Shown piece by piece: positions 9,870-24,425 of a DNA stretch of 34,577 bases. Within the stretch, counting starts at the first letter, position 1. Each line of letters starts with the position of its first letter. A program made the translations under genes and the position numbers. Location of the stretch: contig QHVD01000026.1 of NCBI GenBank assembly GCA_003222235.1, positions 1 through 34,577 on the forward strand. The letters are read 5' to 3'. The notes under the pieces were generated by a model, which worked only from the letters and a program-made list of their open reading frames with translations, searched no databases and was not told where the DNA came from. This DNA is from Gemmatimonadota bacterium (lineage in GTDB: Bacteria; Gemmatimonadota; Gemmatimonadetes; Gemmatimonadales; GWC2-71-9).

Positions 9870-11036
9870 ATGGCGGACAGGCGGACTGACCGACCGGCGG
9901 ACGGTGGAGGCGTAGGCGTGCGCGCGCGGCAGGTGCTCGAGCTTCAATTGTTTCCGTCCACCTGTCCGCCAGTCGCTCCGTCCGCCCTGTCTTCGTCCGC
10001 CAGTCCACCGGTGCGTCCGTCCGCCCTCCCGGTGCTCGACCAGCGGCTCCGCGGCACCAAGTTCGTGTCGCTCTCCCCGAAGTCGCTTCTCAACTCACCG
10101 CAGCAGACGGGCGTGGACTTCTGGTCCCTGAACCCGTACGTCGGCTGCGAGTTCGGTTGCACGTATTGCTACGCCCGTTATGCACACCGCTACGTGGTCG
10201 AGCGGGCGCACGACGCTGGGAAGCTCTCGGACGACGAGTTCCGCGAATTCCGCGGACCGCAGGGCTGGGAGGCGTTCGAGCGGCGCATCTTCGTCAAGGA
10301 ACGGACTCTCGGCGCGCTGGAGTCGGACCTGCAGCGTTACTTCCGGTCCGCCGGCCGGTCGCACGCTCAGCCCGCACCGATCGTCATCGGCACCGCGACC
10401 GATCCCTACCAGCCCGCCGAGCGGCATTTCCGGATCACCCGCCGGATCCTGGAGCGCCTGGCGTGCTGCGAAGGCCTCAACCTCGGGATCATCACGAAGA
10501 GCCCGCTCATCGCGCGCGATCTGGACGTGCTGCGGGACATCCAGGCCCGCAACGATCTCGAGGTGTACGTCTCGCTCATCACGGTGGACGCGCCGCTCAT
10601 CCGGAAGGTCGAGGCCCGCTCGCCGATGCCAGCGGTGCGGCTGCGAGCCCTGAAGCGGCTGACGGACGGCCGGATCAACGCCGGGCTCATCGTGGCGCCG
10701 GTCCTTCCGGGGATTACGGACGATTTGCCTCAGCTGGAAGCCCTATTCCGGGCGGCCCGCGAGGCCGGCGCCAGGTTCGTACACGCGGGACCCTTGCGTC
10801 TCTACCCCGCCGTGCGCGACCGCTACCTGCCGGTTCTCGAGAAGCACTTCCCGCATCTCGCCGGGCGCTACCGGCGCGCCTACGCTCGCCAGAGCAGCGC
10901 GCCGCGGGAATACGCGGCGGCGCTGGCGCGTCGCATCAAACAACTCCAGCGGAGGTTCGGGTTTCCGGCGAACGACGGGATGCGGGACCGCTACGCGCGG
11001 CGGCGGCCGCCCACCCAGGGAGCGCTCGAGCTATGA
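9870..11036 (+). CDS. Radical SAM protein, COG1533 / SplB-like (PA0069/Rv2578c-type) family
   Basis: SPKSLLNSPQQTGVDFWSLNPYVGCEFGCTYCYARY carries the CxxxCxxC cluster, followed by TDPYQP and further family blocks. The first ~54 codons are translated repeat sequence, so the true start may be GTG 10032. Confidence 0.85.
   Translation: MADRRTDRPADGGGVGVRARQVLELQLFPSTCPPVAPSALSSSASPPVRPSALPVLDQRLRGTKFVSLSPKSLLNSPQQTGVDFWSLNPYVGCEFGCTYCYARYAHRYVVERAHDAGKLSDDEFREFRGPQGWEAFERRIFVKERTLGALESDLQRYFRSAGRSHAQPAPIVIGTATDPYQPAERHFRITRRILERLACCEGLNLGIITKSPLIARDLDVLRDIQARNDLEVYVSLITVDAPLIRKVEARSPMPAVRLRALKRLTDGRINAGLIVAPVLPGITDDLPQLEALFRAAREAGARFVHAGPLRLYPAVRDRYLPVLEKHFPHLAGRYRRAYARQSSAPREYAAALARRIKQLQRRFGFPANDGMRDRYARRRPPTQGALEL
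9872..10025. repeat. Inverted arrays of an ~8-nt unit (GGCGGAC x3, then GTCCGCC x4)
   Basis: GGCGGAC occurs at 9872, 9880 and 9896. GTCCGCC occurs at 9964, 9980, 9995 and 10019. The arrays could form a long imperfect hairpin. They are stop-free in the frame of the downstream ORF. Confidence 0.55.
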
Positions 11037-13533: not shown

Positions 13534-14832
13534 ATGGCGCGAAATCACCTGACGAGCTCCTCCGCCGTCTGCTGCTGGATACCGCTATTCGCGCTGCGCT
13601 GCGAAGCGGCGCGGCGACCCGAGCTCGGGTCCCGGCCCAGCGCGCTCGTCGCACCCGACGATACCCGCAGGGTGTGGCAGGTCTCGCCGCTCGCCCGGCA
13701 TGCGGGCGTGAAGCCCGGGATGACCGTCAGCCAGGCGATCGGTCTATGCCACACGCTCCTGCTGTGCGAAGCCGACCCGGTCTATTACGACGAGCAGTTC
13801 GCTCGACTGCTCTCCGCCCTGGGAGCGGTGAGTCCCGTCATCGAGGCGCCCGAGCTGGGCAGGGTGTTCGTGGGGACGGACGGGTTGGAAGGGTTGTATG
13901 GGGGGCCGGAACGGATCGCGGATGCGATCAAGTGCGGAGTGCGGAGTGCGGAGTGCGGAATTTCAATGCAAGCTCGTTCGCCACGACACTCACCTGAAAA
14001 CTCCGCATTCCGCACTCCGCATTCCGCACTCCGGGTGGGGTGGGGCATGGGCAAGTTCGTCTCCTGGGTGGCCGCGACCCGCGCCAAGCCAGGTGGCGCG
14101 GTCATCGTTCGCCCCGGGGAGGAGGGGAAGTTCCTCGCGGCGCAGCCGCTGGCCGTGTTGCCGCTCGATCCGGACACGCACCGCCGGCTGCGGCTGCTCG
14201 GGCTCCGCACGATTGGGGACCTCGCGGCGCTTCCGGAGGAAGCGGTGGTCTCGCAGCTCGGTCGCGCCGGGCGCCGCCTGTGGCGGCTCGCGGCGGGCGA
14301 GACCGCGGAGCGGGTCGTCGGCCGCGAGGCGCCTGAGCCGATCACCGCCGCCATCGCCTATTTCTCTCCGGTTGCCGAGCGGGAACTGCTCGCGCACGCG
14401 CTGGAGCAGCTGATCGAGCGCGCGCTCAGGCACCCGCGCCGCGCCGGCTGGCGGGTACAGGTGCTGCGTGCGCGCGCCGAGCTCGAGCACGGCGCGTCGT
14501 GGCTCGCCGAGGCGACGCTCAAGGACCCGTCGGCGGACCGGGATCGCATCGCCGCGCCGCTCAAGACGCGCCTCGAGCAGGCGCCCCCCACCGGGGCCGT
14601 GGAGCGGCTCGCCGTCGAGTTCACCGGGTTCGCGCCGGGCACCACCGAGCTGCAGCTCTTCGCGCGCGACGCGCGCGCCGCCGCCCGGGCCGGCCGACGC
14701 CGCGCGCTCCGCACCGCCGTCCACGAGATCAAGCTCCGGCTCAAGCGCCCGATGCTGTACCACGTCATCGCCGTCCAGCCATGGTCGCGCATCCCCGAAC
14801 GCCGCTACGCGCTGATCGACTATGAACCCTAG
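13534..14832 (+). CDS. imuB: ImuB, Y-family-polymerase-like component of the ImuB/DnaE2 mutasome; catalytic-fold part only, truncated by a repeat-borne TAG
   Basis: The N-terminus reads AVCCWIPLFALRCEAARRPEL...VSPLARHAGVKPGMTVSQA...DPVYYDEQF...SPVIEAPELGRVFVGTDGLEGLYGG. The gene sits directly upstream of dnaE2. It contains an in-frame ~35-codon repeat insert (CGVRSAECGISMQ...[12 protein letters not shown]). Confidence 0.85.
   Translation: MARNHLTSSSAVCCWIPLFALRCEAARRPELGSRPSALVAPDDTRRVWQVSPLARHAGVKPGMTVSQAIGLCHTLLLCEADPVYYDEQFARLLSALGAVSPVIEAPELGRVFVGTDGLEGLYGGPERIADAIKCGVRSAECGISMQARSPRHSPENSAFRTPHSALRVGWGMGKFVSWVAATRAKPGGAVIVRPGEEGKFLAAQPLAVLPLDPDTHRRLRLLGLRTIGDLAALPEEAVVSQLGRAGRRLWRLAAGETAERVVGREAPEPITAAIAYFSPVAERELLAHALEQLIERALRHPRRAGWRVQVLRARAELEHGASWLAEATLKDPSADRDRIAAPLKTRLEQAPPTGAVERLAVEFTGFAPGTTELQLFARDARAAARAGRRRALRTAVHEIKLRLKRPMLYHVIAVQPWSRIPERRYALIDYEP
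13931..14033. repeat. Hairpin-type heptamer element inside imuB: (AGTGCGG)x4 - 41-nt spacer - inverted 31-mer
   Basis: The left arm is 13931-13958 (+aat). The right arm, 14000-14030 (actccgcattccgcactccgcattccgcact), is identical to 21683-21713. The arms pair with G:T (G:U) wobbles. The element is read through in frame. Confidence 0.9.
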
Positions 14833-14861
14833 TGCGGAATGCGGAGTGCGGAATGCGGAAT
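14831..14861. repeat. 31-nt heptamer element AGTGCGGAATGCGGAGTGCGGAATGCGGAAT (left copy of a perfect inverted pair)
   Basis: The reverse complement of 15164-15194 is identical, 31 of 31. The preceding T plus the element's first AG form the imuB stop TAG (14830-14832). Confidence 0.95.
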
Positions 14862-15125
14862 AGGCCTGACAGGCTTCGGGCGCTAAATGTGCCGCAACGG
14901 GTGGAGGTGGAGCTGGACGAACGCGGGGTGCCGGCGTTCGTGAAACCGAAGACGGGAAACGGGAAACGGATCGAGTCCATCGGCGAGACCTGGCGCATCG
15001 ACGACGAGTGGTGGCGACGACCGATCTCGCGTCGCCATGTCGAGGCGATCCTGGAGAGGGGTAAGCGGGTGGTGCTGTTCGAGGATCTGATGACGGCCGA
15101 GTGGTGGATGCAGATGCCGACATAA
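14832..15125 (+). CDS. Stand-alone ImuB C-terminal domain (split from imuB)
   Basis: LNVPQRVEVELDERGVPAFVKP...IGETWRIDDEWWRRPISRRHVEAILERGKRVVLFEDLMTAEWWMQ matches my recollection of the ImuB C-terminal block (ERIxxEWW...RDY...LFRD...WFLHG). GTG 14832 overlaps the imuB TAG as TAGTG. Alternative starts are ATG 14853 and GTG 14889. Confidence 0.6.
   Translation: MRNAECGMRNRPDRLRALNVPQRVEVELDERGVPAFVKPKTGNGKRIESIGETWRIDDEWWRRPISRRHVEAILERGKRVVLFEDLMTAEWWMQMPT
14952..14970. repeat. AACGGGA-family heptamer array (about 2.5 units) inside the ImuB C-terminal ORF
   Basis: gacgggaaacgggaaacgga encodes KTGNGKR. The same family occurs at 17674-17708. Confidence 0.7.
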
Positions 15126-15126
15126 C

Positions 15127-15194
15127 GCGGCATTCGGAATGCGGCAGCGAAGCCCGACCTTCGATTCCGCATTCCGCACTCCGCATTCCGCACT
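15127..15194. repeat. Hairpin-type heptamer element between the ImuB-C ORF stop and the dnaE2 ATG (degenerate left arm, palindromic spacer, perfect 31-mer right arm)
   Basis: The element reads gcggcattcggaatgcggcag - cgaagcccgaccttcg - attccgcattccgcactccgcattccgcact. It ends one base before ATG 15195. Confidence 0.9.
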
Positions 15195-18100
15195 ATGTAT
15201 ATCGAACTTCACTGCCACTCCGCCTTCTCGTTCCTCGACGGCGCCTCACTCCCCGAGCAGCTCGCGCTCACGGCCGCGCAGCTCGGCTACCCGGCGTTGG
15301 CGCTCACCGATCACAACGGCCTGTACGGCTCGATGGCGTTCGCACAGGAGGCGAAGCACCTCGGCCTGCAGGCGATCACCGGCTCGGAAGTGACGCTGCT
15401 CGACGGCTCGCACGTGACGCTGCTCGCCGAAACGCCCGAGGGGTACGCGAACCTGTGCCGGCTGATCACCGAAGCACATCTGGGCCGTGTCGACCGCCGC
15501 GACCCGCGACTCGACTTCGCTTCGCTCGAGCGGCGGCACGAGGGGCTCGTCGTACTCTCCGGCTGCCGCGCCGGACTGCTCGCAACCGTGCTCGAGAAGG
15601 AAGGCCGCGCCGCCGCCCGGAGGCTGCTTGAGCGCTGCCGTGCCGAGTTCGGGAAGGAGAGCTTCTTCGTCGAGCTCCAGCGCAACCTGGTCCGCGGCGA
15701 TCGCGACCTTACGCGCGCACTCTGCGATCTCGCGGATCGCGTACAACTTGGCGTCGTAGCGACGGGGAACGTGCACTATCACACGCGCGAGCGGCATCGG
15801 CTGCACGACGTGCTCGTCGCGATCCGGCACCGCGCGACGCTCGACGGCTCGCACGACGTGCGGCGACCGAACAGCGAGTTCTCCCTGCGGCCGCCCCAGG
15901 AGGTCGCGGCGCTCTTCTCCGATCGGCCCGACGCGGTCGCGAACACCGGCGTGATCGCCGAGCGCTGCGGGACGTTCGACCTGACGCGCGACCTCGGCTA
16001 CGTCTTTCCCGACTTCCGTGGCGCAGGCCGGACGTCCGCCCCGCAGGCCCTGGCCGAGCTGTGCCGCACGAGGCTAGAGGAGCGCTATCCCCCGGGTTCC
16101 GCCCACCGGGACGAGGCCGAGCGGCGCCTCGAGCAAGAGCTGGCGCTCATCGAGCGCCATCGACTCAGCGGGTTCTTCCTGGTCTATCACGACCTCTTCG
16201 ACCTGGCCCGCGAAGTGGCGGCGGATGTGCGCCGGGGTACCCGGCGGGCCCACGGGAACCTGCTCCCCGGCCGCGGCCGCGGCTCGTCGGTGTCGTCCAT
16301 CGTATGCTACCTGCTCGGCCTGTCGCACATCGACCCGGTCGCGAACCGGCTGTTCATCGGGCGATTTCTCAACGAGACCCTCGCGTCGGTGCCCGACATC
16401 GATCTCGACTTCCCGCGCGAGATCCGCGAGGAGCTGATCCGCCGGGTCTACAGGCGCTACGGCGACGAGCACGTCGGGCTCGTCTGCTCGTTCCCCACCT
16501 ACCGGCTCCGCTCGGCGGTGCGAGAGATCGGCAAGGCGCTGGATCTGCCGCTGGGAGAGATCGAGCAGACGGCGAAACTGGCGGACCGGCGGTCGGGCGG
16601 GGGCGGACTGGCGGACGAGTTGGACCAGCTCCCGGGCTTCGAGGGACGGCGCACGGCCCCGCTCTGGAAAGAGCTTTGCGAGCTGGCCGAGGAGATCACG
16701 GGGCTGCCCCGCCACGTGTCGCAGCACGTCGGCGGGATGATCATCTCGAGCCGGCCTCTCGTCGAGCTCGTGCCGCTCGAGCGCGCGGCGATGGAGGACC
16801 GCGTCGTGTGCCAGTGGGACAAGGACTCCTGCGACGACGCGCGCTTCATCAAGATCGATTTTCTCGCGCTCGGCATGTTGTCGCTGGTGGAGGAGTGCGT
16901 CGAGCTGGTCGCCGCGGGCACGGGGACGCCGCCCGACCTCTCCCGCATTGATTTCGATGACCCCGCGGTCTACGACCGCATCTGCCGCGGCGACACCGTG
17001 GGGCTGTTCCAGATCGAGAGCCGCGCGCAGATCCAGATGATCCGCCGCACCCGGCCGAAGAACCTCGAAGACTTGGCCGTCGAGGTGGCGATCGTGCGGC
17101 CGGGGCCGATCGTGGGCGGCGCCGTGAACCCGTACGTGCGCCGCCGTGAGGCGCAGCGCCGCGCCGAAGCCGAGGGGCGCCGCTACGAGCCGCCGGTGGA
17201 CCACCCGCTCCTGAAGCCCGTGCTGGCGGAGACGCTGGGCGTGATTCTCTATCAGGACCAGGTGTTGCAGGTGTGCCAGGCGCTGGCCGGGTTCACGACC
17301 GGGCAGGCCGAGGCGCTGCGCCGCGCGATGAGCCGCCGGCGCAGCCGCGAGCTGATGGCGGGGTTCTGGGAGGAGTTCAAGGACGGGGCGGCGGCGCGCG
17401 GGGTCCCCGAGTCCGTCGCGCAGCGCGTGTTCACGCAGGTGATCGCGTTCTCCGAGTTCGGATTCCCCAAGTCCCATGCGGCGGCGTTTGGGCTGCTCGC
17501 CTACCAGTCGGCGTGGCTCCGGCACTATCACCCAGTCGAGTATTACTGCGCGCTCTTCAACAACCAGCCGATGGGGTTCTACTCGCTCGACGTGCTCGGG
17601 CGGGACGCGCAGCGCAACGGCATCGAGATCCGGCTCCCGGACGTGAACCGGAGCGACGTGTGGTGCACCATAGAACGGGAAACGGGAAACGGGAAACGGG
17701 AAACGGGGGCGGTGCGGGTGGGGCTCGGGTTCGTCCGTGACTGGAGCGAGGAGACGGCGACCGCCGTCGTGACCGAGCGCGAGCGCAACGGCCCGTTCCG
17801 GAGCGTCGGCGAGCTCGTGCGCCGCGCGCCTCCCAAGCTCAAGCGCAGCGCGATCGAGAACGTCGTGTGGGTGGGCGGGTGCGACGGCTTCGGTCTCACA
17901 CGGCGCGAGCTGTTGTGGCAGATAGGGCTGTGGCTCCCGCCCCGGGAGGAGCGCGGCGGTGACGCACGCGGCCGGCGCCAGCTCGAGCTCGCGCTCAACC
18001 ACCCGCACGAGCACTTGCGCTTCGGCGGCCTGGAGCCGGGCGAGCGGATGCTCGCCGAATACGCGGTGTTGGGGTTCGCGGTGAGCGGCCACCCGCTCGA

Positions 18101-18527
18101 GCTGCTACGCCAGGCGCTGCCGCGCGGGATGGCGAAGAGCGACGCGCTCCCGCGGCTCGAACACGGGACATGGGTCGAGGTGGCGGGCCTCGTGGTCGCG
18201 CGCCAGCGTCCCGAAACGGCGAAGGGGTTCATCTTCGTGCTGCTGGAGGACGAGGCGGGGATGGTGAACGTCATCGTACGGCCGGACGTATTCCAGCAGC
18301 ACCGCGCCGCGATCCGCGGCGAGCCGTTCCTGTGGGTGCGGGGGAAGCTCGCGAAGGACGACGGGACGGTGAACGTGGTGGCGGAGGAGGTGCGGGGACT
18401 CAGACTGAATGCGGAATGCGGAGTGCGGAATGCGGAATCGACGGGCGAGCCCACCATTCCCCATTCACCGTACGCCTTCCTGAAGACGATGCGCCGGGTG
18501 GCGCCGGAATCGAAGGATTGGGGCTAG
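15195..18527 (+). CDS. dnaE2: Error-prone DNA polymerase III alpha-like subunit DnaE2 (ImuC)
   Basis: The PHP domain reads YIELHCHSAFSFLDGASLPEQL...LALTDHNGLYG. Pol III alpha core blocks include GRGSSVSSIVCYLLGLSHIDP, DIDLDF, FQIESRAQ and RPGPIVGG. The protein is 1110 aa and lies downstream of imuB. Confidence 0.95.
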   Translation: MYIELHCHSAFSFLDGASLPEQLALTAAQLGYPALALTDHNGLYGSMAFAQEAKHLGLQAITGSEVTLLDGSHVTLLAETPEGYANLCRLITEAHLGRVDRRDPRLDFASLERRHEGLVVLSGCRAGLLATVLEKEGRAAARRLLERCRAEFGKESFFVELQRNLVRGDRDLTRALCDLADRVQLGVVATGNVHYHTRERHRLHDVLVAIRHRATLDGSHDVRRPNSEFSLRPPQEVAALFSDRPDAVANTGVIAERCGTFDLTRDLGYVFPDFRGAGRTSAPQALAELCRTRLEERYPPGSAHRDEAERRLEQELALIERHRLSGFFLVYHDLFDLAREVAADVRRGTRRAHGNLLPGRGRGSSVSSIVCYLLGLSHIDPVANRLFIGRFLNETLASVPDIDLDFPREIREELIRRVYRRYGDEHVGLVCSFPTYRLRSAVREIGKALDLPLGEIEQTAKLADRRSGGGGLADELDQLPGFEGRRTAPLWKELCELAEEITGLPRHVSQHVGGMIISSRPLVELVPLERAAMEDRVVCQWDKDSCDDARFIKIDFLALGMLSLVEECVELVAAGTGTPPDLSRIDFDDPAVYDRICRGDTVGLFQIESRAQIQMIRRTRPKNLEDLAVEVAIVRPGPIVGGAVNPYVRRREAQRRAEAEGRRYEPPVDHPLLKPVLAETLGVILYQDQVLQVCQALAGFTTGQAEALRRAMSRRRSRELMAGFWEEFKDGAAARGVPESVAQRVFTQVIAFSEFGFPKSHAAAFGLLAYQSAWLRHYHPVEYYCALFNNQPMGFYSLDVLGRDAQRNGIEIRLPDVNRSDVWCTIERETGNGKRETGAVRVGLGFVRDWSEETATAVVTERERNGPFRSVGELVRRAPPKLKRSAIENVVWVGGCDGFGLTRRELLWQIGLWLPPREERGGDARGRRQLELALNHPHEHLRFGGLEPGERMLAEYAVLGFAVSGHPLELLRQALPRGMAKSDALPRLEHGTWVEVAGLVVARQRPETAKGFIFVLLEDEAGMVNVIVRPDVFQQHRAAIRGEPFLWVRGKLAKDDGTVNVVAEEVRGLRLNAECGVRNAESTGEPTIPHSPYAFLKTMRRVAPESKDWG
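17674..17708. repeat. Tandem heptamer array (AACGGGA)x5 inside dnaE2, read in frame
   Basis: gaacgggaaacgggaaacgggaaacgggaaacgggg encodes ERETGNGKRETG. Confidence 0.9.
18408..18470. repeat. 31-mer heptamer element (30/31 to 14831-14861) plus a degenerate inverted arm, in frame near the dnaE2 3' end
   Basis: aatgcggaatgcggagtgcggaatgcggaat (18408-18438) is followed by cgacgggcgagcccacc and then attccccattcaccg. It encodes [21 protein letters not shown]. Confidence 0.85.
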
Positions 18528-19119: not shown

Positions 19120-20034
19120 TCACGGTTGGGGGCTTGCTGGCACGGCGATCGCCCCCGTCGGCCATTCACCGTCGAGGAAGCGCCGCATTGCCGCCAGGAC
19201 CGGCTCGGGTTGCTCAACGTAGAGCGCATGTCCCGCGCCGGGGAACATCATCAACCGCGCATTGGGCATTCGCTCGGCCCACACCCGCGCCCCTTCCGGC
19301 GGCGCGATGAGATCCCGATCGCCGTGCATCACGAGGGCCTCGGCCGTGATCGAGCCGGCCTGGTCCCGGAAGTCCCACTCGCCCAGCGACCGATCCACGT
19401 GACCATACCACGCAAATAGCTGCTCCGGTCGCTCGTTCGGCAGATCGCAGAAGTCCACCGGGAAACGATCGGCGAGCGCCGGGTCACCCACGTACACCGG
19501 TGCGTTCGCCCTCCAAAACCGGCGGCAAAAGCCCTCCGGGTCGCGCTTGCTCGCACCCGACTGGAGCAGGCGGGCGACCTCCTGCGCGGCCGGCGTCCTG
19601 ACTCGGAGCGCCTTCTCGGGGGGGTTGTAGGAGCGGCCGAGAGCCGCGGAAGGCGCCATAGCGCCGAGCGCAACCAGTCGACTGACACGGTCTGGGTGCT
19701 CCGCCGCGTACACCGCCGCGATCGCGCCGACGTAGGAAAAGCCCACGAGCGCCATGCGCTCGAGTCCGAAGTGGCGTCGCACCGCCTCGACGTCGGTGAG
19801 GTCGTGCGTGATGCCGATCCGCGCGGGGTCGCGCACCGCGTCCGAGCGGCCGCGACCGCGCAGATCGTAGAAAATCAGGCGCTGGCCGTCGGCGAGCGGC
19901 CCGAGCGGGCCCGCGAGGTAGACGGCAAGGGGAACGACGACCGCCTGGGAACCGCTGCCGCAGAGCTGGTAATGGAGGCGCAGGCCCTCTTCGGCCGGTA
20001 GCCAGCCCTCCGAGCGGGCGGCCCCACGCATCAT
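19120..20034 (-). CDS. Alpha/beta-fold hydrolase (proline-iminopeptidase-like)
   Basis: The oxyanion region reads [10 protein letters not shown]. The nucleophile elbow reads [34 protein letters not shown] and GAGH lie near the C-terminus. The ATG overlaps the lhr stop as ATGA. Confidence 0.8.
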
Positions 20035-23000
20035 TCGCGCAGTGAGGCCGGCCGGGGGCGGGGGCGGGGGCGGGTCTTTCCGAGATAGGTCCGCACCAGG
20101 GGCGCCACCCGGCGCTGGACCAACGCGGTCCTGATCTGTTGCTCTGCTTCTGGGCTAGCCTCGACCAGTAACTGCACGCCGCGCCCTTCGCCTTCCTGGA
20201 TCGCGATCGGGATGCCGTCGCGATAGAGCACGTGGTTCGTCGCGACCGCGGGCAGCGGGTTCCCGGCCGTGAGAATGCCGACGAGATTGAGCGGATCCGC
20301 CCCGCTCACCGCGACGAGCTCGCCGCTCGGGTCCTGGCGTCGCACGGAGCGGAGCAGTCCCACCGCCTCTGCAAGCGCGTACTGCTCGCCCGAGAACCCC
20401 GCGACGAAGCGGCCGCCGCGGATCTCGCCGCGCGCCTCGAGCCGGCGGTAGGCCCGCAGGACGTCCCGCCACGGCGGCAGCGGGGATTCACGCGTCACGA
20501 GCCGCCGGAAGACTACGCCGTAGCGTCGGAGCAGCTGCCGGGCGACGGCTTCCGCGACCTGGTCTTCCGGCAAGAGCGTCGACCGCGGCACGCGCGACCA
20601 CCGGCCGGCGGTCTCGACCCCGAACGGCGCGACCTTGCCGTGGCGGCGGAACCCGCCGATCGGCCGGCGCCGGTCGGATGGGACCAGCAGCGCCCGCAGC
20701 CCCGCGAAGCTGTCCGAGGTGACGAGCCCCCAGGCCACGAGCTCGCCGAGGCCCTTCTCGACCTCGGTCCGCAACAGTCCCGTCGCGCTCACGAGATCGC
20801 CGAAGAACGATGCGCCGCGCCGATCGAGCGCGTCGAGTAGCGCCCGCGCCGCGTGCGACAGAGGCAGCTCCCCGGACTCGGGGCTCACCGCGAGCGATCG
20901 CCACACGTCTCCTCGCTCCCGTCGAAACAGCGCGACGGGCGTCGAGCGGACGGGTCCAGCCTTGCGACCCCCCCCACCCCCCCCGCCCCCCCCACCGTTC
21001 AGGATGGTGCGCGGCGCCACTGCGGCGAGCCTCCCCCAGGCGATCTCCCCCGACAGGCAGAGCCCGTCGAGCCACAGGGGATCGTACTCCCGCAACCGCG
21101 CCGGCAGCACGTCCGTCTCCCACGCGCCAGCGGCAACCTCGCACCCGTCGAGCAGGTCGAGCACCGCCGCGAGCCCCTCGGGTCCCTCGGCGCGGGATTC
21201 GTCTGCAACCCGCTGCCACTGGAAGAGGAAGCGGGTGAAGTCGGCGGCGGTGACCGGCTCGATCTCCTTGCGCAGCCGGTCCAGGGTGTAGCGATGAATG
21301 CGGGCGAGGAGGCGGCGCTCGCACCACTCCAGCTCGCTCGTGCCGGGGGTGAACCGGCCGCGCAGCACGAACCCTTCGTGCTCGAGCGCGCCGAGGGCGA
21401 AGTCCACGTCGGCTACCGGCACGCCGAGCGCCGTCGCGACCGCCGCCGCCGTCGTCGGCCCGACAACCTCGAGCCGGCCCCGCACGAGCTCCCGCAGGGC
21501 GTCCTCGCGCGTCCAGCTCCTCGCCCGCTCGCGCTCGGGCGGCGTGAGCGCCGGCTCGCAGCGCGCGCCCGGGAACACCGCCGCGAGCATCGGCAGGCGC
21601 TCGGCCGCAAGCCACAGTCCTGCGCCCGCCTGAAGCACGCCGGCCCGCCCGGCCTGGACGAGCTGCCCGAAATACCCCTGCCACTCCGCATTCCGCACTC
21701 CGCATTCCGCACTCGGGAGGGCACCGGTGACCAGCAACGCATCGTGCAGCTCGTCCGCGGAGCTGACGTCGGGCCAAGCTTCGTCCTTCACCCGGTCGAT
21801 CGCCGCCTGGTCGAGCTTGCCGAGCTCGTCCGCCGTCTTCACGTCGAGCCCGCGGCGGGTGATCACGGCCTGGGTGCGGCGCTCCTCCAGCGGGGCGTCG
21901 TCCAGGAACGCGTACGGCTTCGCGTTCAGCGCCTCGTGCGACAGGGGCGACGGCTCCGCCGTGTCGCGCGCGACGAGCGCGAAGCGCCCCGCCTCCATCT
22001 CCTCGAGCACGCGCTTGAGTCCCGGGAAGTCCATCGCCTCGAGCAGGCAGTCCTCGATCGTCTGCTTCACGAGCGGATGGTCGGGGATCTCCCGGTCGCC
22101 CACCAGGTTCTCGGGGCAGGCGAGCTGATCGGGAAAGATCGCCGCGACCAGGTCTTCGGCCTCCATCCGCTGCAGCGGGGTGGGCACCTTCTTCCCACCG
22201 CGCTGGCGCAGCACGGCAAGTGCCCGGGTGGCGTTCCAGCGCCAGCGTGACTGGAACATCGGCGCGTCGAGCATCGCCTGGACGAGCAGCCCCTCGACCG
22301 TCGCGGGCTTCAAGTACTGGAATACGTCCTCGAGCGGGAAGCTGTGCTGAGGCCCGAGCGAGAGGACGATCGCATCCTCGGTCGCCGCGGCCTGCAGCTC
22401 GAAATTGAAGCTGCGGCAGAAGCGCTTCCGCAGGGCGAGCCCCCAGGCCCGGTTGACCCGGCTCCCGAACGGCGCGTGCAGCACGAGCTGCATCCCGCCT
22501 GCCTCGTCGAAGAACCGCTCGACCACGATCGTCTGCTGCGTCGGGATCACGCCGAGGATCTGCTTCGAGGCAGCGAGATACTCGACCATCTGGCGCGCGG
22601 CGGGCTCCGGGAGCCCCGGGATCTCGCGACCCACCCACGCCACGGCCGACTGGGGATCCGCGAGCCGATCGGAGATGTCCTGGCGCAGCCGCGACACGGC
22701 CTCCGACAGCTCCGCCGTGCGCGCCGGCGCCTCGCCGACCCAGAACGGGATGGACGGCGGCTGCCCCTGCGCGTCCACGACCCGCACCTGGCCCGACTCG
22801 ATCTTGCGAATGAGATAGGAGGTGTTGCCGAGCTGGAAGACGTCGCCCGGCATGCTCTCGATCGCGAAGTCCTCGTTGAGCGTGCCGACGAACGTGTCGG
22901 TGGGCTCGAGCACCACCCGGTAGTCGCCGATGTCGGGGATGGCCCCTCCCGACGTTATCGCCGCGAGTCGGGCGCCGCGACGGGCCCGCAGCCGGCCGTT

Positions 23001-24425
23001 CACCCCGTCATAGTGAACGTAGGCGCCGCGCCGGCCGCGCCGCGTGGTGAAGCCCTCGGCGAGCATCTGCACGACGTCGTCGAAGTCCTTGCGCGAGAGG
23101 TCGCGGTAGGGATAGGCGCCGCGCACGAGCTCGTACAGCGCCCCTTCGTCCCACTCTTCGCATGCCACCGCCGCCACGAGCTGCTGAGCCAGGATGTCGA
23201 GCGGGCGCCCCGGGATGATCAGCCGGTCGAGCCGGCGCTCGCGCGCGGCGCGGACCAGCGCCGCGCACTCGATCAGCTCGTCACGCGACAGCGGAAAGAT
23301 CCGCCCCTTGGGTACCGCTCCGAGGTGATGTCCCGACCGGCCCACCCGCTGCAGCAGCGTGGCGATCGAGCGCGTCGAGCCGATCTGGCAGACCAGGTCC
23401 ACCGCGCCGATGTCGATCCCGAGCTCGAGCGACGCCGTGGCGACGAGCGCCTTGAGCTTTCCCTCCTTGAGCCGCTGCTCCGCCTCGAGGCGCTTATCAC
23501 GAGACAGGCTGCCGTGATGCGACGTGACGTGCTCGGCGCCGACGCGCTCGGAAAGGTGCATCGTCATGCGCTCGGCGAGCCGGCGGGTGTTCACGAACAC
23601 GAGTGTGGTGCGGTGTTCGCCGATGAGCTGGGCCAATCGGTCGTACAGCTCCTCCCACACTTCCGCCGCCATCACCGCCTCGAGCGGCGAAGAGGGGATC
23701 TCGATCGCGAGGTCGAGCTGCCGGGCGTGGCCCGAGTCGATAATGCAGGTGTCGGGTGTCGGGTGTCGGATGCCCGCCAGGAAAGCGGCGATCTCCTCGA
23801 TCGGCTTCTGGGTCGCGGACAGACCGATGCGCTGGAGCGAGCGGCCCGCCAGATGCTCCAGCCGCTCGAGAGAGAGCGCGAGGTGGCTGCCGCGCTTGTC
23901 CCGCGCCACGGCGTGGATCTCGTCCACGATCACCGTGCGCACCGTGCGGAGCATCGCACGCGCGTTTTGGGACGTGAGGATGAGATACAGCGACTCGGGA
24001 GTCGTGACGAGGATGTGCGGCGGACGCTTCGCCATCGCCTGGCGGTCGGGCTGCGGCGTATCGCCCGTGCGAACGAGCGTGCGGATCTCCACGTCAGGCA
24101 GGCACAACTGCTCCAGCGTGCCGCGGATCTCGGCGAGCGGCTCGGCGAGGTTCTTCTGAACGTCGTTCGAGAGCGCCTTGAGGGGAGAGACGTACACCAC
24201 CTGGGTCTCGTCCCCCAAGGTGCCGTCCAGCCCCTGACGAAGCAGGGAATCGATCGCGGCGAGGAACGCCGCGAACGTCTTCCCCGAGCCCGTGGGGGCC
24301 GCGATCAGCGCGTGCCGGCCGGCCTGAATGATCGGCCAGGCGCCACGCTGCGGCTCGGTCGGATCGCGGAACCGCGACTCGAACCAGCGCGCGACGACGG
24401 GATGGAAGCCGGAGAGCGTCATCAC
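20031..24425 (-). CDS. lhr: Large ATP-dependent helicase Lhr (SF2 DEAH, Lhr core plus long C-terminal region)
   Basis: Motifs [35 protein letters not shown] and LELGIDIG...RVGRSGH. The protein is 1464 aa. It carries the in-frame inserts [11 protein letters not shown] and G10, and an RPRPRPRP tail. Confidence 0.9.
20053..20074. repeat. (CGGGGG)x3+ hexamer array encoding the RPRPRPRP tail of Lhr
   Basis: The sequence reads ccgggggcgggggcgggggcggg. Confidence 0.85.
20968..20996. repeat. (C8-N)x3 nonamer array encoding a Gly10 run in Lhr
   Basis: The sequence reads ccccccccaccccccccgccccccccacc. The homopolymer runs of 8 are also error-prone in sequencing. Confidence 0.85.
21683..21713. repeat. 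31-mer heptamer element (inverted orientation) in frame inside lhr
   Basis: actccgcattccgcactccgcattccgcact is identical to 14000-14030 and matches the reverse complement of 14831-14861 at 30 of 31 positions. Confidence 0.9.
23748..23769. repeat. (GGTGTCG)x3 heptamer array in frame inside lhr
   Basis: ggtgtcgggtgtcgggtgtcgg encodes HPTPDT on the minus strand. Confidence 0.85.

What the first reader, a model, noticed from the sequence alone, without database searches (positions are those of the whole stretch)
13931..14033. Hairpin-forming heptamer element embedded in frame in imuB
(AGTGCGG)x4, a 41-nt spacer and an inverted 31-mer are translated as [34 protein letters not shown]. This lies between ...ERIADAIK and VGWGMGKF..., which looks like a loop between conserved blocks of the Y-family fold.

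The protein therefore tolerates a ~35-residue insert whose mRNA can fold into a stem of about 28 bp with G:U pairs. This is a mobile or expanding DNA element that survives inside a CDS because it has no stops in any frame.
Basis: partly seen in the sequence, partly recalled or inferred. Interest (0 to 1): 0.6.

Follow-up and report, generated by a model that had tools for sequence, protein, structure and literature searches.

The report
Fast-swapping heptamer hairpin inside imuB
A 103-base hairpin made of 7-base repeats is read through as a floppy surface loop of the mutagenesis protein ImuB. All 80 related soil bacteria examined keep a hairpin (a few only a remnant) at this exact spot, yet its arms and core are rewritten, swapped and flipped far faster than the gene around it evolves.

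Summary
**Observation:** confirmed. At 13931-14033, (AGTGCGG)x4, a 40-nt spacer and an inverted GGARTGC array lie in frame in imuB. They fold into a 29-bp stem (-71 kcal/mol, z = -8).

**Not a recent insertion.** All 80 orthologous soil-metagenome loci (72-99% identity) carry an in-frame insert at the same codon. Distant ImuB homologues lack it. It maps to a disordered loop (pLDDT <50) of a Y-family fold.

**What is conserved is the palindrome, not the peptide.**
- The arm heptamer differs between lineages (GGAGTGC/GGAATGC, GGAACGC, GGATTGC), and both arms match in 67 of 69.
- The same spacer is read in two frames.
- The core occurs in both orientations.

**Decoupled from the gene.** Arm class is unlinked to gene phylogeny (at least 26 switches on 71 tips; no association beyond about 45 nt).

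**No mRNA-strand bias** was found in the pairing.

**Context.**
- Heptamer arrays are 32-fold enriched in this imuB-dnaE2 operon over its flanks.
- The same heptamer sits in frame in housekeeping genes of many phyla.
- Elsewhere it brackets 23S-IVS-type four-helix-bundle genes.

**Best reading:** a passenger palindromic repeat, kept perfect by DNA-level slippage, arm-to-arm template switching, inversion and block replacement. A regulatory role is not excluded.

The parts
13534..14832 (+). imuB: a catalytically dead Y-family polymerase homologue and the host gene of the hairpin.
   Evidence: PF00817 E = 2.3e-15. Foldseek matches DinB/Dpo4/Rev1 at E about 1e-23. Pol IV D103-E104 align with G109-R110.
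13931..14033 (+). The complete in-frame hairpin element (H1), spanning codons K133-R167.
   Evidence: An insert is present at the same codon in 80 of 80 orthologous loci.
13931..13959 (+). Left arm: (AGTGCGG)x4 + A. It has a GCGGA core with variable dinucleotide GT.
   Evidence: TRF reports 4.1 copies at 100% match. It pairs with 14002-14030.
13960..13999 (+). Spacer/loop containing a small inner stem. It is homologous to the spacers of other RT-class alleles. Those are read in another frame or lie inverted.
14000..14033 (+). Right arm: an inverted array of alternating ACTCCGC and ATTCCGC units.
   Evidence: TRF reports period 14, 2.4 copies, 100% match. The inverted repeat is 33 nt at 91% complementarity.
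14831..14861 (+). Left arm of a second pair of the same family (H2). It overlaps the imuB stop codon.
   Evidence: The position is conserved in orthologues.
15164..15194 (+). Right arm of H2. It ends at the dnaE2 ATG. The two arms bracket the small ImuB-C-like ORF.
   Evidence: Arm class matches the left arm in 30 of 30 loci, with at least 7 switches on the tree.
18405..18438 (+). Same-family array in frame near the C-terminus of dnaE2 (H3). Its partner arm is degenerate in this genome but intact in relatives.
21682..21714 (+). Same-family array, with units in minus orientation. It is translated in frame ([10 protein letters not shown]) inside the Lhr-like helicase ORF at 20031-24425 (-).
14948..14969 (+). 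Array of a second heptamer family (ACGGGAA) in the ImuB-C-like ORF. The position is conserved in orthologues.
17674..17707 (+). (AACGGGA)x4.9 in frame in dnaE2. The position is conserved in orthologues.

Best explanation
**What it is.** H1 is an old, positionally fixed palindromic repeat. It consists of two inverted arrays of a heptamer with a constant GCGGA core and a variable dinucleotide, around a short spacer. It sits in a disordered surface loop of the inactive Y-family protein ImuB and is translated as a passenger peptide.

**Shown here**
- What is conserved across lineages is the nucleic-acid palindrome. The amino-acid sequence, reading frame and orientation are not conserved.
- The palindrome changes as a block, uncoupled from the gene around it.

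**Inferred**
- The stem is kept near-perfect, and is remodelled rapidly, by DNA-level processes acting on the palindrome itself:
  - unit slippage within arrays;
  - arm-to-arm template switching or gene conversion;
  - inversion of the core;
  - short-patch replacement by another allele or copy.
- Selection only filters for an open imuB frame.
- The element belongs to a widespread family of heptamer-armed hairpins. These are gene-less relatives of cassettes whose inverted heptamer arms enclose a 23S-rRNA-IVS-type four-helix-bundle gene.

**Not shown**
- Whether the cell also exploits the stem.
For: **Fixed site, variable content**
- 80 of 80 orthologous loci have an in-frame insert at the same codon. 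It spans 81-180 nt between anchors, always a multiple of 3.
- Distant homologues lack it.

**Palindrome conserved**
- Nearly every allele folds at -44 to -86 kcal/mol.
- On core-anchored arms, 91% of cells pair.
- 88 cells show two-sided changes, against 31 +/- 5 in shuffles (0 of 500 reach it). Slid controls reach at most 0.09, against 0.255.
- Arm class is the same on both arms in 67 of 69 loci (26 expected).

**Peptide is a passenger**
- The homologous spacer is read in codon phase 1 in the window and phase 2 in L130 and L163.
- The core is inverted in 7 of 25 RT and 8 of 27 AC alleles. This includes transfer of the irregular CCCACTTCC unit to the other arm.
- The loop is disordered in the model.

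**DNA-level rather than mRNA-level**
- Sense and antisense folds are equally stable (35 vs 25 alleles; G:U pairs 124 vs 131).
- Within the RT class, A/G at paired positions is independent (Fisher p = 0.46).

**Block behaviour**
- Arm class needs 26 changes on a 71-tip gene tree, and well-supported branches force at least 10-16.
- The gene itself has a clonal frame. 5' and 3' distances correlate at r = 0.82, and pseudo-type Fst is 0.16-0.2 at all separations.
- Arm-class Fst with the flanks is only about 0.03, reaching 0.10 only in the adjacent 45 nt.
- Sister lineages about 4% apart carry entirely different cassettes.
- The same flank-plus-hairpin haplotypes recur in independent assemblies.

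**Published mechanism**
- Template switching creates and maintains perfect stems and inverts loops (PMC8794818; PMC13100816).

**Family membership**
- The same TGCGGAR arrays lie in frame in ValRS, PurL, HypF, Mfd, aminotransferases and other genes of many phyla.
- Inverted heptamer arrays enclose PF05635 genes in L048 (same heptamer; E = 3.6e-16) and L104 (E = 1.3e-38).
Against: - **Enrichment suggests selection.** Period-7 arrays are 32-fold enriched in the operon (1.27 per kb, against 0.039 per kb in flanks). No other repeat period shows this. GYGGA-core arrays number 170 inside the operon and 0 outside.
- **No complete loss.** None of the 80 lineages has lost the insert entirely. Only about 5 show independent partial deletions. 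Both points suggest selection for the stems, or an operon-specific cause that this explanation does not supply.
- **H2 is hard to explain by template switching.** Its arms are 330 nt apart and switch class together (30 of 30 loci, at least 7 events), while the enclosed ORF is unlinked.
- **Gradual change is not enough.** Wholesale cassette differences between close sisters need a donor that was not identified.
- **Data limits.** All comparative data are short-read metagenome assemblies. Strain chimeras at repeats cannot be fully excluded.
Confidence: 0.5

Rival explanations
1. **Selected cis-regulatory structure.**
- H1, together with H2 and H3, would be kept because long double-stranded stems in the imuB-dnaE2 transcript restrain expression of a dangerous mutasome.
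- Possible routes are RNase III cleavage, stalled or uncoupled translation, or polarity.
- A DNA hairpin or cruciform affecting transcription or replication of the operon is an alternative form of the same idea.
For: - Three hairpin sites are positionally conserved in all lineages.
- Period-7 arrays are 32-fold enriched in the operon over its flanks, specific to period 7.
- No lineage has completely lost the insert.
- H2 arms overlap the imuB stop and abut the dnaE2 start. They co-switch in 30 of 30 loci although the enclosed ORF is unlinked.
- Stems of 28-31 bp exceed the length RNase III needs (established knowledge, not tested here).
- Heptamer repeats upstream of recF and recO affect expression in Nostoc (bioRxiv 10.1101/2022.06.06.494920).
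Against: - There is no sense-strand signature. G:U and A:C mismatches are equally frequent, and the antisense strand folds as well.
- Partial-deletion alleles persist in intact genes, one on a long branch (L138/L160).
- The same arrays sit in unrelated housekeeping genes in other phyla.
- There is no Rfam family for it.
- No expression data exist.
Confidence: 0.27
2. **Programmed intragenic inverton or contingency switch.**
- The inverted arms would be recombination or slippage sites.
- They would flip the core, or shift the frame by one 7-nt unit, to vary or switch off ImuB within a population.
For: - Both orientations of the core exist in the RT and AC classes, with at least 3 and at least 4 orientation changes on the tree.
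- A 7-nt unit is not a multiple of 3.
- Arrays occur in imuB, the ImuB-C ORF and dnaE2.
Against: - 80 of 80 assembled alleles are in frame.
- Inversion only recodes a disordered loop.
- The loop is 20-44 nt, very short for a site-specific recombinase. No recombinase was seen next to the operon.
- Within-population variation could not be tested. Runs are held as contigs that break at the arms.
Confidence: 0.08
3. **Recent transposition of a MITE-like element into imuB.** This is the first reader's view: a mobile element that happened to land in frame.
For: - It has a palindromic architecture with terminal inverted arrays.
- The same heptamer arrays are dispersed through many genomes and are hugely abundant in soil reads. 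Word depth is 3,700-49,000, against about 10 for the flanks.
- Gene-carrying relatives exist.
Against: - No empty site occurs among the 80 orthologues.
- A degenerate hairpin lies at the same site in a 55%-identical relative.
- No target-site duplication is visible.
- Spacers are site-specific, not family-wide. H1 RT-short and AC alleles share a spacer that H3 lacks.
Confidence: 0.05
4. **The insert is kept for what its peptide does in ImuB**, for example as a partner-binding loop.
For: The insert is always translated: frame 0 has 0 stops in 61 distinct inserts.
Against: - The peptides differ completely between classes (CGVRSAECG, RGTRNAERGT, LRIVDCGLRI).
- The same DNA is read in two frames and in both orientations.
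- The region is disordered in the model.
- Deletion alleles exist.
Confidence: 0.03

Closest known systems
Rickettsia palindromic elements (RPEs; Ogata et al. 2000, as summarised in PMC10969869)
   Same: - Short palindromic repeats inserted in frame in unrelated functional genes.
- They are read through at positions compatible with the protein fold.
   Different: - RPEs are about 150 bp, belong to ten sequence families and encode a conserved peptide.
- This element is built from tandem heptamers and has no conserved peptide. It is read in two frames and in both orientations.
- Its arm sequence and core are swapped at a fixed site.
- The same heptamer occurs across many phyla.
REP/REPIN-RAYT systems (PMC8049555; bioRxiv 10.1101/2022.05.22.493013; PMC3733652)
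   Same: - An inverted doublet forms a long hairpin of about 100 nt.
- The elements persist at orthologous sites over long times.
- Several sequence classes coexist in one genome.
   Different: - REPINs are extragenic, carry GTAG/CGTC-tagged REPs rather than tandem heptamers, and depend on a RAYT gene.
- None of these features was found here, and the presence of a RAYT could not be tested.
Heptanucleotide simple-sequence repeats: cyanobacterial STRR, TAACTGA repeats of Beggiatoaceae, and long SSRs in prokaryotes (PMC4679880 and work cited there)
   Same: - Tandem 7-nt units in short arrays of 3-6 copies.
- Several heptamer families occur per genome.
- One heptamer is shared by distant phyla with no known transfer mechanism.
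   Different: - The described arrays are mostly intergenic direct repeats.
- Here the arrays are paired in inverted orientation and lie in frame in coding sequence.
- The two arms co-vary, and the arrays are concentrated in one operon.
23S rRNA intervening sequences and cassettes carrying an S23p / PF05635 four-helix-bundle ORF
   Same: - A long stem is formed by inverted terminal sequences around an insert placed in a transcribed, functional gene.
- In L048 the very same TGCGGAR arrays enclose a PF05635 gene.
   Different: - H1 encloses only 40 nt and no gene.
- It is translated rather than excised. The in-frame, frame-0 stop-free state of all alleles argues against removal from the mRNA.
Template-switch-generated hairpins (PMC8794818; PMC5453318; PMC13100816)
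   Same: - Multi-base changes appear on both stem halves at once.
- Imperfect arms are homogenised.
- Loops are inverted while their length is kept.
- There is no strand bias.
   Different: - Those cases are described mainly for rRNA and miRNA genes and yeast promoters, with short stems.
- Here the stems are 28-35 bp tandem-repeat arms inside a protein-coding gene.
- Some changes replace the whole cassette, which is more than one switch event explains.

Membership tests
ImuB (host gene) | Y-family polymerase fold | tested here: met
   PF00817 E = 2.3e-15. AlphaFold model pLDDT 88.6. Foldseek matches DinB/Dpo4/Rev1 at E about 1e-23 to 1e-25.
ImuB (host gene) | Catalytic carboxylates lost | tested here: met
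   In the phmmer alignment to E. coli Pol IV, L-D103-E104 aligns with L-G109-R110. The N-terminal D-x-D position reads CCWIPLF.
ImuB (host gene) | Operon with a DnaE2-type polymerase | tested here: met
   ORF 15195-18527 has PHP, Pol3 alpha, finger, HHH and OB domains. The arrangement is conserved in orthologous loci.
Rickettsia palindromic elements | Palindromic repeat inserted in frame in a functional gene at a structurally tolerant site | tested here: met
Rickettsia palindromic elements | Conserved encoded peptide or sequence family | tested here: not met
   Peptides differ by class, frame and orientation.
REPIN / REP-RAYT | Inverted REP doublet forming a hairpin | tested here: met
   Two inverted 29-34-nt arms with a 40-nt spacer.
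REPIN / REP-RAYT | Extragenic location and a GTAG/CGTC tag | tested here: not met
   The element is inside a CDS. The arms are tandem heptamers with no GTAG or CGTC tag at their ends.
REPIN / REP-RAYT | Cognate RAYT gene in the genome | not testable with these tools
MITE | Target-site duplication and empty sites in relatives | tested here: not met
   No direct repeat flanks 13931-14033. 0 of 80 orthologous loci have an empty site.
Heptanucleotide SSR / STRR-like arrays | Tandem 7-nt units, 3 or more copies, several families per genome | tested here: met
   TRF results. Ten period-7 arrays of 4 unit families in the window.
Heptanucleotide SSR / STRR-like arrays | Intergenic direct repeats | tested here: not met
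   The arrays are in frame in coding sequence and paired in inverted orientation.
Heptamer-armed PF05635 (23S-IVS-type) cassette | Inverted heptamer arrays as termini | tested here: met
   Arms of H1. The same heptamer forms the termini in L048.
Heptamer-armed PF05635 (23S-IVS-type) cassette | Enclosed four-helix-bundle gene | tested here: not met
   H1 encloses 40 nt. tblastn with the L048 and L104 proteins finds nothing in the window. At most, H1 is a gene-less relative.
Intragenic inverton | Inverted repeats with both orientations of the enclosed segment | tested here: inconclusive
   Both orientations exist between lineages. Variation within a population could not be read from contigs.
Known RNA families (Rfam 15) | Match at the gathering score | tested here: not met
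   Only sub-threshold hits to miRNA-precursor hairpins (38 bits or less, against cut-offs of 77-168).

The most novel reading that the evidence does not exclude
**Heptamer-armed hairpins are written and rewritten by a dedicated, widely distributed machinery.**
- The machinery might be linked to the Avd-like PF05635 four-helix-bundle cassettes and a polymerase or reverse transcriptase.
- Alternatively, it might be the ImuB/DnaE2 mutasome acting preferentially on its own damage-induced locus.
- It would overwrite both arms and the core of a resident hairpin as one block without touching the flanks.
- This would make H1, H2 and H3 targeted hypervariable cassettes inside the mutasome operon.
- It would also explain why one heptamer (GGARTGC) recurs in frame in housekeeping genes from Acidobacteriota to Chloroflexota.
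Probability: 0.15. Interest if true: 0.88.

Novelty: new variant of a known kind. Interest (0 to 1): 0.68.

Why it matters
- **A maintained palindrome inside a working gene.** A protein-coding gene can carry, for a very long time, a nucleic-acid palindrome that is maintained independently of the protein it is translated into.
- **A natural system for hairpin maintenance.** The palindrome evolves by block changes (arm rewriting, inversion, replacement) at least an order of magnitude faster than its host gene. This gives a natural system for studying how perfect hairpins are kept up: by template switching and conversion, or by selection.
- **A possible layer of mutasome control.** Period-7 arrays are 32-fold concentrated in an error-prone-polymerase operon. 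This raises a testable question: do these stems control the mutasome, or does damage-induced synthesis generate them?
- **A class not described in the searched literature.** The same heptamer lies in frame in housekeeping genes of many soil phyla and brackets IVS-type genes. This points to a widespread repeat class that I could not find described.
- **A practical consequence.** Such arrays break short-read assemblies and inflate protein-length differences in MAG annotations.

Tried and rejected
2. **mRNA-specific selection.** I tested sense vs antisense stability, G:U vs A:C counts, and unit-level A/G pairing within the RT class. There was no bias.
3. **General recombination as the cause of scrambled arm classes.** Rejected. 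The gene has a clonal frame (r = 0.82; pseudo-type Fst 0.16-0.2), and only the hairpin is unlinked.
4. **Frameshifted (phase-off) alleles.** The nine loci my first regex missed are all in frame.
5. **"Stop-free in all frames".** No stop lies in the arms of the window copy, but inserts overall are no more open in off-frames than the flanking CDS (26 of 61 vs 225 of 366).
6. **Rfam.** Only miRNA-hairpin noise.
7. **Literature.** Searches for the exact DNA and the encoded peptides gave 0 papers.
8. **DNA-repair bias across phyla.** Genes carrying TGCGGAR arrays in other phyla showed no such bias: 80 Pfam families in 45 ORFs.
9. **Co-switching of H1 and H2.** The direction is consistently positive, but the test is underpowered (p at least 0.06).
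10. **Orientation variants within one population.** Not readable, because Logan unitigs break at the arms.
11. **Assembly artefact.** Considered for the class/flank decoupling and judged unlikely. Identical flank-plus-hairpin haplotypes recur in independent assemblies, and the 5' and 3' flanks stay correlated. It is not excluded.
Full report
**1. What is there**

- Window 13931-14033 reads (AGTGCGG)x4, then a 40-nt A/T-richer spacer, then an inverted array of alternating ACTCCGC and ATTCCGC units.
- It lies in frame in ORF 13534-14832 and is translated [34 protein letters not shown].
- The ORF is a Y-family homologue (PF00817, E = 2.3e-15). The catalytic D-E of Pol IV aligns with G109-R110, so it is inactive, as ImuB proteins are.
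- A DnaE2-type gene follows at 15195-18527.
- As a single strand, the element forms a 29-bp stem with two G:U pairs, at -71.4 kcal/mol and z = -8.2.
- The heptamer pattern occurs 14 times in the window, against 0 in shuffles.
- It is not an artefact. An independent 99%-identical contig carries it (L121). Unitigs of three soil runs cover 13933-14025 without a difference.

**2. It is an insert in a loop, but an old one**

- Homologues at 30-43% identity (about 395 aa) lack these residues.
- In an AlphaFold model (pLDDT 88.6), the insert extends helix 125-140. It then forms a pLDDT <50 loop before strand 167-172. The fold matches DinB, Dpo4 and Rev1.
- Proteins at 73-99% identity, named Gemmatimonadetes or Gemmatimonadales by their sources, all have about the same length as the query.
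- All 80 orthologous loci fetched from soil metagenomes have an in-frame insert at the same codon.
- The insert spans 81-180 nt between anchors and is always a multiple of 3.
- Five lineages show partial deletions. None has an empty site.
- A 55%-identical relative has a degenerate hairpin of another heptamer at the same site. A 58%-identical relative has none.

**3. What is conserved is the palindrome**

- Almost every allele folds at -44 to -86 kcal/mol.
- The heptamer differs between lineages: GGAGTGC/GGAATGC ("RT"), GGAACGC ("AC"), GGATTGC ("TT"), once an 8-mer, and once GGTRCGT.
- The core GCGGA is constant, and the two positions before it vary.
- Both arms carry the same class in 67 of 69 loci (26 expected).
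- On core-anchored arms:
  - 91% of cells pair;
  - 88 cells show changes on both sides, against 31 +/- 5 in shuffles (0 of 500);
  - slid controls give at most 0.09, against 0.255.
- This alignment was anchored by me on the repeat core, and cells are not independent events.
- The peptide is not conserved:
  - the homologous spacer is read in two different phases;
  - the whole core is inverted in 7 of 25 RT alleles and 8 of 27 AC alleles, including an irregular unit that moves to the other arm;
  - this needs at least 3 and at least 4 orientation changes on the tree.
- Frame 0 has no stop in 61 distinct inserts, while other frames do. The insert is therefore translated, and "no stops in any frame" fails for the spacer; no stop lies in the arms of the window copy.

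**4. It changes as a block, independently of the gene**

- On a tree of the flanking imuB DNA (71 tips), arm class needs 26 changes. Well-supported branches force at least 10-16.
- This is not general recombination:
  - 5' and 3' pairwise distances correlate at r = 0.82;
  - pseudo-types defined from any 45-nt window keep Fst 0.16-0.2 across the gene;
  - hairpin class has Fst of about 0.03 with the flanks, and 0.10 only in the adjacent 45 nt.
- Sisters about 4% apart (for example L149 and L181) differ in arms, spacer and length.
- Some RT alleles (L173, L129, L149) share the AC-type 27-nt spacer. Arms can therefore be rewritten around a retained spacer.
- Mixed arrays look like intermediates.
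- The same flank-plus-hairpin haplotypes recur in independent assemblies, which argues against chimeras. Short-read assembly remains a caveat.

**5. DNA level or RNA level?**

- Sense and antisense strands fold equally well (35 vs 25 alleles; G:U pairs 124 vs 131).
- Within the RT class, A/G at paired positions is independent (p = 0.46).
- There is thus no mark of selection on the mRNA strand, and no base-by-base compensation. Complementarity comes from both arms being made of the same unit.
- Published work shows that template switching during replication homogenises inverted-repeat arms, makes multi-base "compensatory" changes in one event, and inverts loops (PMC8794818; PMC13100816).
- Together with slippage and short-patch replacement, this accounts for most of what is seen.

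**6. Context that complicates a purely neutral reading**

- The same family occupies conserved positions elsewhere in the operon:
  - at the imuB stop and just before the dnaE2 ATG (H2; 14831-14861 and 15164-15194);
  - near the dnaE2 C-terminus (H3; 18405-18438).
- H2 arms are 330 nt apart and are the same class in 30 of 30 loci, with at least 7 switches. The ORF between them is unlinked to arm class.
- Across the orthologous loci, period-7 arrays run at 1.27 per kb inside the operon and 0.039 per kb outside. Periods 5, 6, 8 and 9 show no such contrast.
- GYGGA-core arrays number 170 inside the operon and 0 outside.
- In the window, the sixth array of the family lies in frame in an Lhr-like helicase.
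- This enrichment, and the absence of complete loss, keep a regulatory role alive at 0.27.

**7. A wider family**

These include Acidobacteriota, Verrucomicrobiota, Planctomycetota, Chloroflexota, Gemmatimonadota and Nitrospirota.
- Its word depth in soil runs is 3,700-49,000, against about 10 for the flanks.
- 69 of 110 arrays lie in long open frames.
- 45 such ORFs hit 80 Pfam families, including ValRS, PurL, HypF, Mfd, CobQ, MiaA and aminotransferases.
- Spacers are not conserved between sites.
- Inverted heptamer arrays enclose PF05635 (23S-rRNA-IVS protein, Avd-like) genes in L048 (same heptamer) and L104. L108 has one adjacent. This confirms a lead from earlier notes of this scan.

**8. 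Verdict**

It is an in-frame insert in a tolerant loop that forms a hairpin. It is not a recent mobile insertion and is not stop-free throughout.
- I could not find the element or its peptides in the searched literature.
- It resembles RPEs, REPINs and heptanucleotide repeats, but it fails a defining feature of each. I rate it a new variant of a known kind.

Noticed in passing
window 14831-14861 and 15164-15194: A second inverted pair of the same heptamer family (H2) overlaps the imuB stop and ends at the dnaE2 ATG. It brackets a small ImuB-C-like ORF. The arms are the same class in 30 of 30 orthologous loci, with at least 7 switches, while the enclosed ORF is unlinked to arm class.
   Followed up: partly
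window 13534-18527, and L121-L200: Period-7 arrays are about 32-fold denser in the imuB-dnaE2 operon (1.27 per kb) than in its flanks (0.039 per kb). Periods 5, 6, 8 and 9 show no such contrast.
   Followed up: partly
window 21682-21714 and 23746-23769: Two heptamer arrays (GGARTGC and GGTGTCG) are translated in frame inside the 1464-aa Lhr-like helicase ORF at 20031-24425 (-).
   Followed up: partly
window 14948-14969 and 17674-17707: A second heptamer family (AACGGGA, peptide GNGKRETG) lies in the ImuB-C-like ORF and in dnaE2. The positions are conserved in orthologues (about +110 and +2840 from the imuB stop).
   Followed up: partly
L048 522-1013; L104 120-593; L108 1835-2265: PF05635 (23S rRNA intervening-sequence protein, Avd-like four-helix bundle) genes are enclosed by, or adjacent to, inverted heptamer arrays. 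In L048 the arms are the same TGCGGAR heptamer as in the window.
   Followed up: partly
L084 1-3717 (-): A Chloroflexia Mfd (TRCF) gene carries at least four in-frame heptamer arrays of several unit types, placed between its domains.
   Followed up: no
window 9870-11036; L201 229-1452; L202 2823-4004: A radical-SAM gene lies directly upstream of imuB in the two more distant relatives fetched (L201, L202), and a radical-SAM-sized ORF lies upstream in the window. It may be part of this mutasome cassette variant.
   Followed up: no
runs X1, X2, X3, X6 laid on window 13700-14250: Logan unitigs break exactly at the heptamer arms. The arms have word depths of 3,700-49,000, against about 10 for unique flanks. 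This heptamer array is therefore extremely abundant in soil metagenomes and fragments short-read assemblies.
   Followed up: partly
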